Source of the DNA: a virus
Taxonomy: Duplodnaviria; Heunggongvirae; Uroviricota; Caudoviricetes
Length of the DNA stretch: 25,084 nucleotides
Direction: 5' to 3' (one strand)
Virus record (IMG/VR): IMGVR_UViG_2778261154_000008
The notes beneath the pieces were generated by a model that saw only the letters and a list, made by a program, of their open reading frames with translations, searched no databases and was not told where the DNA came from. A program made the position numbers and the translations under genes. Position 1 is the stretch's first letter. Each line of letters starts with the position of its first letter. Positions 3,493-8,460 of the stretch are shown here, piece by piece.

Positions 3493-4553
3493 GTGGCCAC
3501 CGCCTTTGTTTTTTTCGTCTTCGCTTTCATTTCCGGCATGTCCAGTGATTCAGGCGGAACCAGCGCCAGAACCGTCATCCTCCCCTGTGCGCCATCCGTC
3601 CATGTCACCCCGGATATCAGCCAGGTGGTTTTCAGGTTCTGAATGCTGTCGTCGATATCGACAAGGCGGTTGGTCTGCCACAGCGGGCCGCTGTCGCCCT
3701 GTTCGCGCCAGCCTGCCACCGTGATTTCCGTCGTGCGGGACTCTCCCAGCATCCGGGCTTTGTACCATTCCCCGCGAATGCTGGCCCCGCCCACGGTCAG
3801 GCTGTCTTCATTGACCAGAATGCGCGGGCGGTAACGGTTAATTTCCGGGTCTTCGGTGATGTACTGGCGACCGCCCACCATCGGGGCAGGCTGGCTGTCC
3901 CACAGTTTGCCACCGGCACTGGTGGTGCCCTTGATGATGTACTGGCTGTTACGCTCCCGCCAGCTGAAGCGCCCACGGGCGGCGAGGATATTTTTTCCCA
4001 GCACCAGTGACACGCCCGCGCGAACGGAAGAGGCGCGGGTGATAATCAGGTTACCCGCGCCGTCAGACGTCAGCAGAACGCCGCGCTGTTTTGCCAGCCG
4101 GTCGAGCAGTTCAAAGCCCGTTTCACCCTGTTCCAGAACGACAGACGCAAATGCCTCCCCGGTCGGGGTTTCCGTGATGACGGTTATCCCGAACGGGCGG
4201 CAGACATCAGCCGCCACCTGTTCAAGCCGCACGCCTTTCCATTTCCCGGACGAATGCACCACAGAGCAGTCCACCAGGTCGCCGGTTTTATCGCGCCCCA
4301 TGACGCGAATCTCCACGTTTTCAGCGTCATAGCCGGGGATAAAATCATCGATATACCCCGTCAGCACGGTATCCGCGCCCAGCCTGACCGTGCAGGGTTG
4401 CCCCTCACGAATCACGCGCGGTGCCGCCGCTGACCAGCGGGTTGTCACACTGAGTTCAAACTCACCGGCAATCGCCTTCAGGGAACGGCTGACGGACATT
4501 TCCGTCCAGCCTTCCCACAGTTTGCCGTCAACGGTAAGAATCACGGATTCCAT
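3483..4553 (-). CDS. Tail protein, Mu P (gp44) / P2 gpD-like
   Basis: 356-aa ORF whose start overlaps the stop of the DNA circulation gene; synteny with Mu N-P-Q-V-W-R-S. Confidence 0.7.
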   Translation of the reverse strand: MESVILTVDGKLWEGWTEMSVSRSLKAIAGEFELSVTTRWSAAAPRVIREGQPCTVRLGADTVLTGYIDDFIPGYDAENVEIRVMGRDKTGDLVDCSVVHSSGKWKGVRLEQVAADVCRPFGITVITETPTGEAFASVVLEQGETGFELLDRLAKQRGVLLTSDGAGNLIITRASSVRAGVSLVLGKNILAARGRFSWRERNSQYIIKGTTSAGGKLWDSQPAPMVGGRQYITEDPEINRYRPRILVNEDSLTVGGASIRGEWYKARMLGESRTTEITVAGWREQGDSGPLWQTNRLVDIDDSIQNLKTTWLISGVTWTDGAQGRMTVLALVPPESLDMPEMKAKTKKTKAVATWD

Positions 4554-5827
4554 CAGTCGGTGATCTCCACAGGTTGCGTCGGCAGGATGAATGACGGATG
4601 ACGCAGGCGGTTACGCTGCACGATTTCATCCCGTCGGCGTGTGTCACCATGCTCGCGCCATGCCAGCAATGCGGCAGAGGTGGTTGTGGTCAGCGTCACC
4701 TGCCGGGTTTCCGGCAGACGGGCGGCACGCTCGCGGGCATCCGTAATCACGGCCTGCCGTAAATCGCGCAGCGTTCGCCACAATGTCCGCTGGTTGTTTT
4801 CCACCGCCGCCACCGCCTGCTCATGCAGTTCAGCCGCCAGCGTGTCACCGGCAGATAACGCCGCATCACGGGTATCGAACGTCATCGAGGCCACGGCACT
4901 GGCCTGTCCCAGCAGGGCTCCCAGCACAACCACCTGGCGGAAGTCGTCAATGTTCTTTTGCAGGCTGTCAGATACCGGCTGATAATCCGGTGACAGCCCG
5001 ATGGCAAAGCCGGGGTTGCCGTCTGCCACGCTGCCGGGCTTCACGGTGATATCTTCCGGCAGTGCGCCGGTGGCAATCTGCCTGGCACGTTCTCCGGCCC
5101 ACTGGTTGCGTAATGTCGTGTAAACCGCCAGTGCTTCGGGTGGTTCCGTCACAAGGCCCGCAATATCTTCCACCCGTGCTGACAGCTCACTGACCAGACG
5201 CCCCGGTGTGGCAATGAGGGTTCCGGCCATCGCCTTAAAATGCTTCAGCCTGTCCATCCACTGATTCAGTGCTGCCGGTAACGTGGGCAGGTTAGCCACA
5301 AGGTTTTCCATATCGGCCAGAAAACTGTCGGCCATGTCACCCAGCCCGTCGAGTGCGCCGAACCAGTCGCCATCGTCAATGGCGGCTTTCACCGCATCAA
5401 TGCCTGTCAGCACTTCCTGCTGCGTGTTATCCGCCGCAGACGGGAACAGGCGCTCGCCTGCCTCAAACACTTCAAAGGTGACATACGCAATGCCGTCTTC
5501 CTCCGTGCTGAGGCGATGGGTGACCTTGCCAACCTGTACGGTCTGTATCCCGAACCACGGGTGGACAAGCTCGCCGGGGCCGGGGGTATTGAGCGCATCT
5601 AAAAGGGCGTTTAAATCATCCCGGAAGTTTTTACCTGGCAGCTTTGCGTTAATCTGCTGTTGCCCCGGAACGGCCCCGTTATCATCCGTCCAGGCGGTTT
5701 CACGCCGGGGATAAGCACGGGGAATGGCACGACGACCACCGGTGCCCTCCGTATCCACCAGAAAGAAGGGGACGCCACGAAACGAGGCGTCGCGCAGCCC
5801 GTCCCATTTACCGTTGCTCGTTGTCAT
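4553..5827 (-). CDS. DNA circulation protein (Mu N / gp43-like)
   Basis: 424-aa ORF directly downstream of the tape measure gene; N-terminus (MTTSNGKWDGLRDASFRGVPFF...) resembles the DNA-circulation N-terminal domain as I recall it. Confidence 0.7.
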   Translation of the reverse strand: MTTSNGKWDGLRDASFRGVPFFLVDTEGTGGRRAIPRAYPRRETAWTDDNGAVPGQQQINAKLPGKNFRDDLNALLDALNTPGPGELVHPWFGIQTVQVGKVTHRLSTEEDGIAYVTFEVFEAGERLFPSAADNTQQEVLTGIDAVKAAIDDGDWFGALDGLGDMADSFLADMENLVANLPTLPAALNQWMDRLKHFKAMAGTLIATPGRLVSELSARVEDIAGLVTEPPEALAVYTTLRNQWAGERARQIATGALPEDITVKPGSVADGNPGFAIGLSPDYQPVSDSLQKNIDDFRQVVVLGALLGQASAVASMTFDTRDAALSAGDTLAAELHEQAVAAVENNQRTLWRTLRDLRQAVITDARERAARLPETRQVTLTTTTSAALLAWREHGDTRRRDEIVQRNRLRHPSFILPTQPVEITD

Positions 5828-7620
5828 TAACCCTGCTCCACGCTGGTGACGCCAGCCTGCGCACTGAGTCTGACGCCGGGTTGATCCACTCTGACGCTTT
5901 TCACGCGGGCATCACCTTCCACCACCACACGGATTTCCCCCTGCAATTGTTGCGGAAGGAAAGGATAATTCTGAGTGGGTTGCATACCAGCCCACGGTCG
6001 CGGGTCGGCAATATTCTTTTTTTCCAGAGAGTTAAACCAGTTCCTGATATCCGTCCATACCGTCGGGCGGTTGTTGTTTTCCTGAACCCGTGCGATTAAC
6101 GCATCTGCTTCCTCTTTGTTCTTAGGGAAAGCAGAGAGCACCATGTCAAGGAGATTAAATCCTGATGCAGTTTGTGGTGTAACCAGCGCTGGCGTCTTTG
6201 GCCCACGTGGGTTGCGGGAGTTACGGGGATTGCGCGATGAATCCGGCGCATCCGGCAGACCGCCGGTATTACCCTTCATCCCGCCACTGCCCATATTGAC
6301 CACATAAACCGGCATCACACCGGAGCCGAAAACATCCGTAATGCTGCCGGGTATCCCTTTGCCTTTCCCTTTGGGATTCATGATGTCGTGGATGGTTTTA
6401 CCGAACTGATACGTCTTTCTGATGGCGATAATGCCGCCCAGCGCGATCGCCATATATTTACCGACCTGCAACCAGTTCTGGGCAGTGTTCTGGTCCACGC
6501 TGTTGAGCGCATCCGCCAGGTCCTGAACGGGCTTTGCCAGTTGCCCTTCAGCAAAACGTTGCCATTCGTTATTCAGTGACTGTATTGCGGCATTAAAGCC
6601 TTCGGCATTGGTCTGTGCGGCCTTTTGCGTGGAACCCAGCTCAATCGTGCCGTAAATCATTTGTTCCATCAGTTGCCGGTTTTCAGGGTTAAGCAGCGCC
6701 TTAATCCCCTGCATTCCGGTCAGATCAAACACATCCTGAAGTTTCAGCGGGTCGTATTTGGCCCGTTTAAGGATTTCCATCATCAGCTCATAGGGCTTTT
6801 TGATGTCTTTTGTGCCTTTGACAAAAACGTCAATGCCGTTTTTTTTCAGGAACTCGATGTTCTTTTTGTCCGACAGGGAAGCATACATGGCCTGAATACT
6901 GGTTACCGTCTCATCAATGCTGCCTTTGTTTTTGGCGAACACCTGAGCAAATGCCCCCATCTGGGCAATGGCTTCCGGTCCCTGATCCTGAATGATGGAA
7001 AACAGTTTCGGGGCAGCGCGGGCAACATCGGCAACGCTTACAGACCCCACTGCGAACTGCGAATACAGCCTGTCCATCATGTTATTGACCGCATCAGCAC
7101 CCCGGACGTTTTTTTCCCAGAACTGGGCCATCAGCCCGGCTGCAACCTGTCCGTCAACACCGAACGCCTGCATCATCAACCCCATGTTGCGGAGGTTGTC
7201 CACCACATACTGATAATCACCGGTTTTCCCCAGAAGTTCGCTGGCCCCCTGACCAAGCGCAGAAGCATCAATACGAATATCTTTCTGGTTCGATACATCC
7301 CTGATTTTGTCGTGAAGCGTCTTTACCTGTTCAGTGGTTAACTGGGCATCCGTACCCATCCGGCGCATCTGCGCATCAAAATCGGCAACCTGTTTGATGG
7401 TAAGACTACTGCCAAGCCCGGCTATCATTGCCGTGTAGCGGTTACCAAGCGTATCAAGGCCGCGTCCTGCGGCCTCCGTTGTGGCTTTGACAAGGCGCAT
7501 GGCCTTCTGGTTGTTCCGGGCGAACTGCGACATGTTTGCGCCGTACTGCCGGGCTTTGGCGGTCAGGTTCCCGGCAAGGTTGATCATGATTTCCGTGCTG
7601 AGACGGTTACCTGTTGCCAT
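5827..7620 (-). CDS. Tail tape measure protein
   Basis: 597-aa ORF, largely helical-looking with a Gly/Pro/Asn-rich C-terminal tract; sits between the chaperone and DNA circulation genes. Confidence 0.8.
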   Translation of the reverse strand: MATGNRLSTEIMINLAGNLTAKARQYGANMSQFARNNQKAMRLVKATTEAAGRGLDTLGNRYTAMIAGLGSSLTIKQVADFDAQMRRMGTDAQLTTEQVKTLHDKIRDVSNQKDIRIDASALGQGASELLGKTGDYQYVVDNLRNMGLMMQAFGVDGQVAAGLMAQFWEKNVRGADAVNNMMDRLYSQFAVGSVSVADVARAAPKLFSIIQDQGPEAIAQMGAFAQVFAKNKGSIDETVTSIQAMYASLSDKKNIEFLKKNGIDVFVKGTKDIKKPYELMMEILKRAKYDPLKLQDVFDLTGMQGIKALLNPENRQLMEQMIYGTIELGSTQKAAQTNAEGFNAAIQSLNNEWQRFAEGQLAKPVQDLADALNSVDQNTAQNWLQVGKYMAIALGGIIAIRKTYQFGKTIHDIMNPKGKGKGIPGSITDVFGSGVMPVYVVNMGSGGMKGNTGGLPDAPDSSRNPRNSRNPRGPKTPALVTPQTASGFNLLDMVLSAFPKNKEEADALIARVQENNNRPTVWTDIRNWFNSLEKKNIADPRPWAGMQPTQNYPFLPQQLQGEIRVVVEGDARVKSVRVDQPGVRLSAQAGVTSVEQG

Positions 7621-7816
7621 GCTGTTTCTCCAGTTGCTTTATCAGGCGGAACAGCTGCCGCAGGGGCAGCTGTTCCAGGTACTGAATGCTGAATCGCGAA
7701 GACAGGTTAACCAGCAGGTTCATCAGTGCCGACGCCAGCGGCATCAGTTCGCCCCCGCGTTGCCACCTCCTCAAGCATGTCATCCAGCACAGCCGCTTTC
7801 GTGCTGATAAGCTCAA
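7607..7816 (-). CDS. Probable frameshift extension of the tail assembly chaperone (G/GT-like arrangement)
   Basis: Frame open from 7816 to 7607, overlapping the chaperone 3' end by 110 nt and the tape measure start by 14 nt. The listed start is TTG with no convincing RBS. This frame is +1 (equivalently -2) relative to the chaperone frame. Confidence 0.4.
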   Translation of the reverse strand: MSLSARKRLCWMTCLRRWQRGGELMPLASALMNLLVNLSSRFSIQYLEQLPLRQLFRLIKQLEKQHGNR

Positions 7817-8102
7817 GGTCTGCCGGGTGGAGCATTCGCAGCTGTTTCATGTCCAGCGGGCCGGGGATATTACCGATTGACGCAACCTGACGGCGCATCA
7901 TCTCCAGTCCCATCAGCACCTCAGAACAGTAGGCCACCGCCTTTCCGTTCCCGCCCATGACGACGCGTTCTGCGGCCAGTTGCGCATCAATCACATCACT
8001 GGCGGTCAGTTCGCGCAGTTTCACGGTTTTATGCAGGGTTTCATCTGCCGTGCCTTTGCCGGTCAGAAGCCCGTGTTTCAGTTCAAATTCCATTGCGGCC
8101 AT
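7707..8102 (-). CDS. Tail assembly chaperone (Mu gp41-like)
   Basis: 131-aa acidic ORF between tube and tape measure genes; its 3' end is overlapped by a second open frame (7607-7816). Confidence 0.55.
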   Translation of the reverse strand: MAAMEFELKHGLLTGKGTADETLHKTVKLRELTASDVIDAQLAAERVVMGGNGKAVAYCSEVLMGLEMMRRQVASIGNIPGPLDMKQLRMLHPADLELISTKAAVLDDMLEEVATRGRTDAAGVGTDEPAG

Positions 8103-8103
8103 G

Positions 8104-8460
8104 TCACACCTTCACGCATTTTTCACCGATAAAGTTGGCACTGATGGTGCCGGAATCCTCGTCCAGCTCTGCCGGGTTATCCGTGGCGGAACCCGTCATC
8201 ATGTAGTTCAGGCCGTTGTCGCCGTAGAACATCACCGTGACATCTTCCCAGCTGCTGATTTCAATCACGTCCATATCCGCTGCCGCCGCAATGGTTACCT
8301 TGATGGACGGCGAGGCCATCTTGCTGGAGATACCCCAGACCTTGCCGCCGCCCATATGCTGGGTGCGGCTGAAGCCGCCCGGATTCAGCGTGGATTTCCC
8401 CTCGGTTTTAATTTCGCGGCCATTCACGCGAATGGTCGCCATACCAAGAATTTTTGCCAT
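8104..8460 (-). CDS. Tail tube protein (Mu M-like)
   Basis: 118-aa ORF immediately downstream of the sheath gene. Confidence 0.75.
   Translation of the reverse strand: MAKILGMATIRVNGREIKTEGKSTLNPGGFSRTQHMGGGKVWGISSKMASPSIKVTIAAAADMDVIEISSWEDVTVMFYGDNGLNYMMTGSATDNPAELDEDSGTISANFIGEKCVKV

What the first reader, a model, noticed from the sequence alone, without database searches (positions are those of the whole stretch)
7607..7816. Tail assembly chaperone overlap that would need a +1/-2 frameshift rather than the canonical -1
Between tube and tape measure genes lies the expected chaperone pair: a 131-aa ORF (7707-8102) whose 3' 110 nt are overlapped by a second open frame running to 7607. By coordinate arithmetic the second frame is +1 (equivalently -2) relative to the first; the -1 frame is not the open one. 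The overlap contains a G-rich run (ACG CGG GGG CGA) as a possible shift site. Most tailed phages use a -1 slip here, so this would be a non-canonical recoding event.
Basis: partly seen in the sequence, partly recalled or inferred. Interest (0 to 1): 0.5.

Follow-up and report, generated by a model that had tools for sequence, protein, structure and literature searches.

The report
Mu-type −2 frameshift in tail chaperone
The overlap is real and is the already documented phage Mu-style "two bases back" ribosomal slip that makes a longer version of the tail assembly chaperone, here in an unannotated E. coli Mu-like prophage, so it is a known mechanism, not a new one.

Summary
On the minus strand a 131-aa gene (8102-7707) lies between the tail tube and tape measure genes. 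It matches Pfam Gp41_Mu (E=4e-37). Its 3' end is overlapped by a +1/-2 frame that is open from 7846 to the TAA at 7609-7607, ending 11 nt inside the tape measure gene. The -1 frame closes after three codons.

GenBank annotates that site as a "verified -2 translational frameshift" (PMID 15469818).

GGGGGCGA in this phase occurs in 117 of 126 homologous loci, and in all 18 clusters (75% aa identity) formed by those loci. In each, the +1/-2 frame encodes a conserved 45-52 aa extension that ends at the tape measure start. On its own the window is weak evidence: P is about 0.04 for the open frame, and the motif occurs once against 1.3 expected. The comparative data decide the case.

The best reading is a programmed -2 slip giving a minor 165-aa fusion product. 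This is a new member of a known kind, in an E. coli Mu-like prophage where RefSeq annotates only the 131-aa protein. One small possibly new point is a Shine-Dalgarno-like GAGGAGGUG 9-11 nt upstream.

The parts
8104..8460 (-). Tail tube protein gene (118 aa), immediately upstream of the chaperone gene
   Evidence: Pfam PF10618 Tail_tube E=4e-38; phrog_185 tail tube E=9e-39
7707..8102 (-). Tail assembly chaperone gene, zero-frame product of 131 aa (Mu gp41 homologue, functional analogue of lambda G)
   Evidence: Pfam PF23746 Gp41_Mu E=4.1e-37 and PF10109 Phage_TAC_7; phrog_508 tail assembly chaperone E=9e-37; 43.5% identity to Mu gp41 by tblastn
7764..7772 (-). Shine-Dalgarno-like GAGGAGGUG. The AGGAGG core lies 11 nt 5' of the P-site GGG codon. 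Candidate 5' stimulator of backward slippage (inferred, not shown).
   Evidence: Duplex with the anti-SD is -13 kcal/mol, stronger than any other 16-nt window in the gene. An SD-like element occupies the same position in 15 of 18 homologue clusters. The Glu codon there is GAG 99 times and GAA 6 times, against 493:456 elsewhere in these genes.
7749..7757 (-). Shift site CGG_GGG_CGA (zero-frame codons R116 G117 R118); GGGGGCGA is the conserved octamer
   Evidence: Same sequence and phase as the Mu site. Invariant in 117 of 126 loci. The site is described as GG_GGG_CGA in PMC3458567.
7607..7753 (-). The +1/-2 frame extension ('T' part): 48 aa, GELMPLASALMNLLVNLSSRFSIQYLEQLPLRQLFRLIKQLEKQHGNR, plus stop TAA at 7609-7607. 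The fusion product is 165 aa in the -2 model.
   Evidence: Translation; phrog_38797 E=1.4e-32; 64 distinct homologous extensions of 45-52 aa; hhalign against the Mu-clade extension E=2.4e-4
7607..7846 (-). Full stop-to-stop open stretch of the +1/-2 frame (79 codons). The part upstream of 7756 is probably never translated.
5827..7620 (-). Tape measure protein gene (597 aa). Its ATG at 7620 lies 11 nt upstream of the stop of the frameshift product.
   Evidence: phrog_973 tail length tape measure protein E=7e-128; position

Best explanation
This is the tail assembly chaperone locus of an E. coli Mu-like prophage, and it uses the Mu-type programmed -2 ribosomal frameshift.

Most ribosomes translate the 131-aa gp41 homologue (8102-7707) to its TAA. 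A small fraction slip two nucleotides backwards. This happens when tRNA-Gly sits on GGG (7754-7752) and the slowly decoded CGA (7751-7749) is in or entering the A site. The peptidyl-tRNA re-pairs perfectly with the GGG formed by the first three Gs of the G5 run. In the tandem version, tRNA-Arg(ICG) re-pairs with GGC, which it cannot do with the -1 frame codon GCG.

Translation then continues in the +1/-2 frame to the TAA at 7609-7607. The result is a 165-aa fusion: 117-118 aa of the chaperone plus a 47-48 aa extension.

By analogy with lambda G/GT, the abundant short protein and the rare fusion both coat the tape measure protein. The extension recruits the tail tube protein so that the tube polymerises to the right length. 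Neither protein ends up in the virion.

Shown here: gene identities, frame geometry, identity of the site with Mu's, and family-wide conservation of the site and of the extension.

Inferred: that the fusion is made in this prophage, that the shift is -2 and not +1, its efficiency, and the chaperone roles.
For: 1. The upstream ORF is a Mu gp41 homologue (Pfam Gp41_Mu E=4e-37). It sits in sheath-tube-chaperone-tape measure synteny.

2. Mu carries GAA CGG GGG CGA GTG in the same phase near the 3' end of gp41. The GenBank record annotates the joined CDS Mu_56 as 'verified -2 translational frameshift in PMID 15469818'.

3. The literature agrees. PMC5009743 says the -2 shift is used in Mu. PMC3498833 gives an efficiency of about 2.2%. 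PMC3458567 describes tandem -2 slippage on GG_GGG_CGA.

4. GGGGGCGA in phase 1 is present in 117 of 126 loci from Escherichia, Klebsiella, Raoultella, Pluralibacter, Vibrio, Shewanella, Aeromonas, Pasteurella, Marinomonas, Marinobacter and others, while the flanks vary.

5. In some lineages the +1 frame opens only 6-9 nt before the G run, and the zero frame stops 11 nt after its first G. This confines the shift to a stretch of about 17 nt that contains the octamer.

6. There is nucleotide-level constraint. The codon before GGG is NGG in 18 of 18 clusters (16 CGG, 1 AGG, 1 GGG), although CGG and AGG together make up only 10 of 98 Arg codons elsewhere in these genes. CGA follows in 18 of 18 clusters, against 13 of 98 elsewhere. 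The first G of the run is needed only for -2 re-pairing.

7. The zero-frame tail after R-G-R varies in length and sequence. The +1/-2 frame peptide is conserved, 45-52 aa long, and ends within -41 to +20 nt of the tape measure start in the 55 of 64 distinct extensions where that start could be located.

8. Beyond the zero-frame stop, variable sites are fewest at codon position 2 of the +1 frame in all three clades tested.

9. The SD-like element lies 9-11 nt 5' of the site. That is the 9-14 nt spacing reported to stimulate backward shifts; forward shifts use 3 nt (PMC5009743 section 36).
Against: - There is no protein or ribosome-profiling evidence for this prophage.
- Within the window alone, the open frame and the motif are not much beyond chance.
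- Direct similarity between the window's extension and Mu's is weak (BLASTP E=0.008 over 17 residues; hhalign probability 44%). The link rests on intermediates and on position.
- No conserved 3' stimulatory RNA structure was found.
- Sequence alone cannot separate -2 from +1.
- Public records disagree on the Mu junction residue, RG|GE versus RGR|E.
Confidence: 0.83

Rival explanations
1. A +1 ribosomal slip at the same site. The peptidyl-tRNA-Gly moves from GGG to GGC while the A site waits for the poorly decoded CGA. The fusion would be 164 aa, with no extra residue at the junction.
For: It reaches the same frame. CGA is a slow codon of the kind that favours P-site slippage (general knowledge). 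Homologues with only four Gs exist, in which perfect -2 re-pairing is impossible: Xenorhabdus GAG_GGG_CGA_TAG and Sodalis/Pantoea GCG_GGG_CGA.
Against: The identical Mu site was determined experimentally to be -2. The first two Gs of the run are invariant across 18 clusters despite rare-codon cost, which a +1 slip does not need. tRNA-Gly re-pairing on GGC has a wobble mismatch, whereas -2 re-pairing is perfect. The SD-like element sits at the spacing typical of backward shifts, not the 3 nt typical of forward shifts.
Confidence: 0.08
2. Independent initiation. The downstream frame is a separate small gene translated from its own start. Candidates are ATG 7743-7741, 7 nt after the G run (which could act as a weak SD), or TTG 7816. 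D108 gene 41.5 is annotated in this way.
For: Start codons exist in the +1 frame of the window. D108 carries a separately annotated 48-aa '41.5' protein. PHROG families exist for the stand-alone ORFs.
Against: The Met is not conserved: V, K, Q, N or L occupy that position in homologues, and the Mu extension has no Met at all. Conservation of the extension begins at G-E/D, immediately at the G run. In several lineages the +1 frame opens only 6-9 nt upstream of the run, which leaves no room for a start there. The invariance of the octamer is unexplained by this model.
Confidence: 0.04
3. Transcriptional slippage. RNA polymerase adds two Gs or drops one G in the G5 run, and standard translation of the edited mRNA then yields the fusion.
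For: A homopolymer run lies at the junction. The products would be indistinguishable from -2 (two extra Gs) or +1 (one G fewer) ribosomal products. Logan assemblies hold contiguous 187-aa Mu fusions with one G fewer, which shows the run is error-prone at some level.
Against: Known bacterial transcriptional slippage uses runs of about 9 A or T (PMC5009743), and five Gs is short. The strictly conserved CGA after the run and the SD-like element are explained by a ribosomal model and not by this one. The purified PURExpress system gave 14% shifting at the Mu site (bioRxiv 10.1101/2025.10.02.679949), but that does not by itself exclude slippage by the polymerase that made the template.
Confidence: 0.03
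4. Chance overlap with no recoding. Only the 131-aa protein is made, and the 86-nt gap before the tape measure gene is simply non-coding.
For: RefSeq/PGAP annotates it exactly this way. Single-sequence statistics are weak.
Against: The octamer, the frame, the length, the end point and the peptide sequence of the extension are conserved across distant genera.
Confidence: 0.02

Closest known systems
Phage Mu gp41 / FS-gp41 (Mu_41/Mu_56; UniProt P0DJY4): programmed -2 frameshift on GG_GGG_CGA (Xu, Hendrix & Duda 2004, PMID 15469818)
   Same: Homologous chaperone (Pfam Gp41_Mu). Same gene order. The CGG_GGG_CGA site is identical and in the same codon phase near the 3' end. Same target frame. An extension of about 50 aa ends at the tape measure start.
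   Different: - Only about 43% aa identity in the chaperone part, and weak similarity in the extension.
- The zero-frame tail after the site is longer here (13 aa versus 6 aa).
- The fusion's stop overlaps the tape measure ATG by 11 nt here, whereas Mu has a 17-nt gap.
- The window has a strong SD-like GAGGAGGUG 9-11 nt upstream, which Mu lacks.
- There is no experimental verification here.
Lambda G/GT and P2 E/E+E': canonical -1 frameshift in tail assembly chaperone genes
   Same: Same position between the major tail/tube gene and the tape measure gene. Same logic of an abundant short product plus a rare C-terminally extended product (PMC5009743).
   Different: The direction is -2, not -1. 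There is no X_XXY_YYZ heptamer. The -1 frame here closes after three codons. No detectable sequence similarity to lambda G was sought or found; only Phage_TAC_7, the P2 E / Mu gp41 group, matches.
E. coli dnaX and IS-element -1 frameshifting stimulated by an internal Shine-Dalgarno sequence
   Same: An anti-SD-complementary element lies 9-14 nt 5' of the shift site, the spacing associated with backward slippage. The window's AGGAGG core is 11 nt from the P-site codon.
   Different: The shift size is -2 versus -1, and the slippery sequence differs. No 3' stem-loop was detected here. The stimulatory role here is only inferred.

Membership tests
Mu-type tail assembly chaperone with programmed -2 frameshift (gp41/FS-gp41) | Upstream ORF homologous to Mu gp41 | tested here: met
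   Pfam PF23746 Gp41_Mu E=4.1e-37, 127 bits against a cut-off of 27; tblastn to Mu 43.5% identity, E=3e-16
Mu-type tail assembly chaperone with programmed -2 frameshift (gp41/FS-gp41) | Located between the tail tube and tape measure genes of a contractile-tail module | tested here: met
   Sheath, tube, chaperone, tape measure and hub identified by Pfam and PHROGs. Same order in Mu.
Mu-type tail assembly chaperone with programmed -2 frameshift (gp41/FS-gp41) | [quoted passage not shown] | tested here: met
   CGG_GGG_CGA at 7757-7749, codons 116-118. Identical to Mu and to the published site.
Mu-type tail assembly chaperone with programmed -2 frameshift (gp41/FS-gp41) | The +1/-2 frame is open from the site to the tape measure start and encodes an extension homologous to those of other members | tested here: met
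   Open to the TAA at 7609-7607, 11 nt past the tape measure ATG. phrog_38797 E=1e-32. Graded alignment through 64 distinct extensions to Mu's. Profile-profile E=2.4e-4. Direct BLASTP to Mu is weak, E=0.008.
Mu-type tail assembly chaperone with programmed -2 frameshift (gp41/FS-gp41) | The fusion protein is actually synthesised, with a junction showing a -2 shift (one extra residue relative to +1) | not testable with these tools
   Needs expression and mass spectrometry. Only indirect support is available: conservation of the first two Gs of the run and the Mu precedent.
Lambda-type G/GT canonical -1 frameshift | X_XXY_YYZ heptamer with an open -1 frame that extends to the tape measure gene | tested here: not met
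   The -1 frame after the G run reads G-A-N-stop. The -1 open stretch around the zero-frame stop is only 25 codons and does not reach the tape measure start.
Frameshift sites with a 3' stimulatory RNA structure | A stable, conserved stem-loop or pseudoknot 5-9 nt 3' of the slippery sequence | tested here: not met
   Window fold z-score 0.35 against shuffles. RNAalifold on 19 diverse homologues predicts no pairs. No Rfam match. A clade-specific GCCG...CGGC hairpin starts only 1 nt after CGA and shows no informative covariation.

The most novel reading that the evidence does not exclude
In this prophage and in most non-Mu lineages of the family, the -2 shift is boosted by an internal Shine-Dalgarno-like element placed 9-13 nt upstream of the P-site codon. 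Here it is GAGGAGGUG; elsewhere it is GGAG or GAGG. Mu itself lacks it.

If true, this would be an SD-stimulated -2 frameshift with lineage-specific tuning of the ratio of short to long chaperone. It would imply a higher efficiency here than Mu's roughly 2%.

Support: 15 of 18 clusters carry such an element in the top 16% or better of windows in their own gene. The Glu codon at that spot is GAG 99 times and GAA 6 times, against 52% GAG elsewhere.

Caveats: the loci are phylogenetically related, the Glu residue itself may be under protein-level selection, and the effect is untested.
Probability: 0.35. Interest if true: 0.35.

Novelty: new member of a known kind. Interest (0 to 1): 0.2.

Why it matters
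The main value is for annotation. The frameshift product of this prophage lineage is missing from RefSeq and from a 15-billion-protein collection. The lineage occurs in 49 of 5426 complete E. coli genomes. An 86-nt 'intergenic gap' is in fact coding.

The family-wide survey also shows that the rare -2 site GGGGGCGA is near-universal among Gp41_Mu chaperones across many Gammaproteobacteria genera. That gives a simple rule for annotating it.

The possible SD-like stimulator would add a testable detail to the mechanism of the best-known natural bacterial -2 frameshift. None of this changes the current understanding of tail assembly or of recoding.

Tried and rejected
- **3' stimulatory structure.** A single-sequence fold of 7756-7680 gave z=0.35. 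RNAalifold on 19 homologues gave no consensus pairs. Rejected as unsupported.
- **Rfam.** A scan of 7300-8300 at E<=1 found only a spurious sRNA hit far below threshold.
- **Promoter and terminator scan.** The scan of 7300-8400 found nothing on the coding strand. The gap is therefore not an obvious regulatory region.
- **Nucleotide search of the phage collection.** Only one close relative turned up, Klebsiella phage Kp4866-3 at 73.6%. A protein search was needed to reach Mu.
- **Primary paper.** Xu et al. 2004 is not in the library, so the site and mechanism were taken from papers that cite it and from the GenBank note.
- **Literature search for the octamer.** A search for 'GGGGGCGA' returned only unrelated papers.
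- **Settling the junction residue from databases.** Exact-sequence look-up found both versions of the Mu fusion, GenBank RG|GE and UniProt RGR|E. The databases do not settle single versus tandem slippage.
- **Codon-position variability test.** In all three clades position 2 of the +1 frame is least variable. In the small window clade, however, position 1 varies more than position 3. This is supportive but not strong.
Full report
**1. What is there.**

On the minus strand the window carries a contractile-tail module:
- tail sheath, 9945-8470
- tail tube, 8460-8104
- a 131-aa ORF, 8102-7707
- a 597-aa tape measure protein, 7620-5827
- a baseplate hub / DNA circularization protein, 5827-4553

These were identified. 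The 131-aa ORF matches Pfam Gp41_Mu (PF23746, E=4.1e-37), Phage_TAC_7 and phrog_508 'tail assembly chaperone'.

The window is 99.7% identical over 4.1 kb to a Mu-like prophage of E. coli FDAARGOS_943. That prophage has Mor, Com and a Mu gpT-type major head gene. Related copies occur in 49 of 5426 complete E. coli genomes.

**2. Check of the observation.**

8102-7816 = 286 = 3x95+1, so the second ORF is in the +1 (= -2) frame.

Stop to stop, this frame is open from 7846 to the TAA at 7609-7607. That is 79 codons, with a 137-nt overlap. Its stop lies 11 nt inside the tape measure gene, whose ATG is at 7620.

The -1 frame is closed. Re-reading one base back from the G run gives Gly-Ala-Asn-stop. 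The sequence ACG CGG GGG CGA is at 7760-7749, and CGG, GGG and CGA are codons 116-118 of the 131-aa ORF.

Taken alone this is weak evidence:
- With a +1-frame stop frequency of 0.039 per codon in the window's own genes, 79 open codons have P of about 0.04. Nine of 304 +1-frame runs are as long.
- GGGGGCGA occurs once, against 1.3 expected by chance.

**3. Identity with the Mu site.**

Mu (AF083977) has ...CAA GAA CGG GGG CGA GTG GCT... at the 3' end of gp41, in the same phase. The record carries a two-piece CDS, Mu_56. Its note reads 'verified -2 translational frameshift in PMID 15469818; tail assembly chaperone frameshift product'.

Three reviews and papers in the library confirm this:
The event is the documented Mu mechanism.

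**4. Comparative test.**

I collected 125 homologous loci:
- 11 annotated phage records
- 34 loci from species-representative genomes
- 80 loci from IMG/VR

With the window included, 117 of 126 have GGGGGCGA in phase 1 within the last 150 nt of the chaperone gene. These reduce to 96 distinct gene sequences, 64 distinct extension peptides and 18 clusters at 75% aa identity. The hosts include Escherichia, Klebsiella, Raoultella, Pluralibacter, Vibrio, Shewanella, Aeromonas, Plesiomonas, Pasteurella, Marinomonas, Marinobacter and Alteromonadaceae.

Findings from these loci:
- In all of them the +1/-2 frame runs on from the octamer for 45-52 codons. The single outlier is 33 codons, in a disrupted copy.
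- Where a tape measure start could be located (55 of the 64 distinct extensions), the frame ends within -41 to +20 nt of it.
- The flanking nucleotides vary freely.
- In several lineages the +1 frame opens only 6-9 nt upstream of the G run, and the zero frame stops 11 nt after its first G. The frame change must therefore occur within about 17 nt that contain the octamer.
- The zero-frame tail after the invariant Arg-Gly-Arg varies from 1 to 13 residues with no conservation.
- The +1/-2 peptides align as a graded family (G-E/D-L/W ... L-P-L-R-x-L ...) that joins the window to Mu.
- The window's extension hits phrog_38797 at E=1.4e-32 and the Vibrio-type phrog_10716 at E=3e-4.
- A profile of the window clade matches a profile of the Mu clade at E=2.4e-4. 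Direct BLASTP to Mu is weak, E=0.008.
- Beyond the zero-frame stop, codon position 2 of the +1 frame is the least variable in all three clades examined.

**5. Is it -2 or +1?**

Sequence cannot separate the two directly. The products are 165 aa and 164 aa respectively. Three lines favour -2.

- The identical site is -2 in Mu by experiment.
- The codon before GGG is NGG in 18 of 18 clusters (16 CGG, 1 AGG, 1 GGG). Yet CGG and AGG together are only 10 of 98 Arg codons elsewhere in the same genes. The first G of the run is needed only for perfect re-pairing after a two-base backward slip. The invariant CGA (18 of 18, against 13 of 98 elsewhere) fits the published argument that tRNA-Arg(ICG) can re-pair with the -2 codon GGC but not with the -1 codon GCG.
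- The window has an SD-like GAGGAGGUG at 7772-7764. Its AGGAGG core is 11 nt from the P-site codon. SD stimulators lie 9-14 nt upstream for backward shifts and 3 nt upstream for forward shifts (PMC5009743 section 36).

The junction residue remains open. GenBank UIW09302.1 writes the Mu fusion as ...QERG|GEWL..., while UniProt P0DJY4 writes ...QERGR|EWL.... Both are 188 aa.

**6. Rival readings.**

- Independent initiation is disfavoured. The ATG at 7743 is not conserved (V, K, Q, N or L in homologues). Mu's extension has no Met. Conservation starts exactly at the G run.
- Transcriptional slippage on five Gs is unlikely, given that known bacterial cases use runs of about nine A or T. It also would not explain the conserved CGA. 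I cannot exclude it.
- A chance overlap is excluded by the comparative data.

**7. Stimulators.**

No conserved 3' structure was found:
- The window fold has z=0.35.
- The alignment fold of 19 diverse homologues predicts no pairs.
- There is no Rfam hit.

Upstream, an anti-SD-complementary element lies in the -22 to -6 window in 15 of 18 clusters. It ranks in the top 16% or better of equal windows in the same gene, with a median percentile of 0.04. The Glu codon at -4/-5 is GAG 99 times and GAA 6 times, against 493:456 elsewhere. Mu, D108 and SfMu lack the element. This is the only possibly new point. It is an inference from related, non-independent sequences.

**8. Annotation status.**

RefSeq annotates only the 131-aa 'phage tail assembly protein'. 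It leaves the next 86 nt empty and calls the tape measure protein hypothetical. The window's fusion protein, under any junction model, is absent from the 15-billion-protein collection. The 131-aa protein is present there in a cluster of 193 members.

**9. Verdict.**

The mechanism is already known from Mu. This locus is a new, unannotated member of that kind. Interest is low (0.2), with a modest side hypothesis about an SD-like stimulator.

Noticed in passing
window 7764-7772 (minus strand): A strong Shine-Dalgarno-like GAGGAGGUG lies inside the chaperone gene, 9-11 nt upstream of the slip codon. Similar GGAG/GAGG elements sit at the same place in 15 of 18 homologue clusters but not in Mu. The Glu codon there is almost always GAG (99 versus 6 GAA).
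   Followed up: partly
L037 and L038 (Xenorhabdus), about 7 nt before the chaperone stop; L043 and L044 (Sodalis, Pantoea persica); L042 (Enterobacteriaceae MAG): These homologues lack the G5 run. Xenorhabdus has GAG_GGG_CGA_TAG, with the zero-frame stop right after CGA. Sodalis and Pantoea have GCG_GGG_CGA. L042 has a G7 run. With four Gs a perfect -2 re-pairing is impossible, so these copies may use +1, may shift poorly, or may be decaying prophages.
   Followed up: no
Mu fusion protein records (P0001 = GenBank UIW09302.1; P0002 = UniProt P0DJY4): The two public sequences of the Mu frameshift product differ at the junction (...QERG-G-EWL... versus ...QERG-R-EWL...). This reflects single-tRNA versus tandem -2 slippage models. 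Both are 188 aa.
   Followed up: partly
P0003 and P0008 (Logan assemblies, Mu-like contigs of 65 kb and 6 kb): These are contiguous 187-aa ORFs that read ...QERGEWLRC... or ...QERGQWLRC.... They are Mu chaperone-extension fusions with one G fewer in the run. They may be homopolymer assembly errors or natural constitutively fused variants.
   Followed up: no
L126 14245-14330 (E. coli FDAARGOS_943, NZ_CP065615.1), equal to window 7621-7706: RefSeq/PGAP leaves this 86-nt stretch unannotated and calls the 597-aa tape measure protein 'hypothetical protein'. The frameshift product is not annotated in this prophage lineage.
   Followed up: yes
window 7741-7756 (minus strand): A one-base backward slip on the same G run would re-pair perfectly but meets TGA after three codons (G-A-N-stop). 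The by-product would be a chaperone of about 120 aa, slightly truncated, and not an extension.
   Followed up: partly
window 7729-7747 (minus strand): A local hairpin, CUGAUGCC-GCU-GGCGUCGG, starts 1 nt after the CGA codon. The GCCG...CGGC core is kept in the enterobacterial clade, but it also encodes the conserved P-L-A motif and shows no informative covariation. It sits too close to the slip site to be a classical 3' stimulator.
   Followed up: partly
window 4553-7620 (minus strand): phrog_23801 (unknown function) matches residues 1-430 of the tape measure protein and, with its last 160 positions, residues 264-424 of the next gene (baseplate hub / DNA circularization protein). This suggests that the PHROG profile was built from fused or mis-called proteins.
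   Followed up: no
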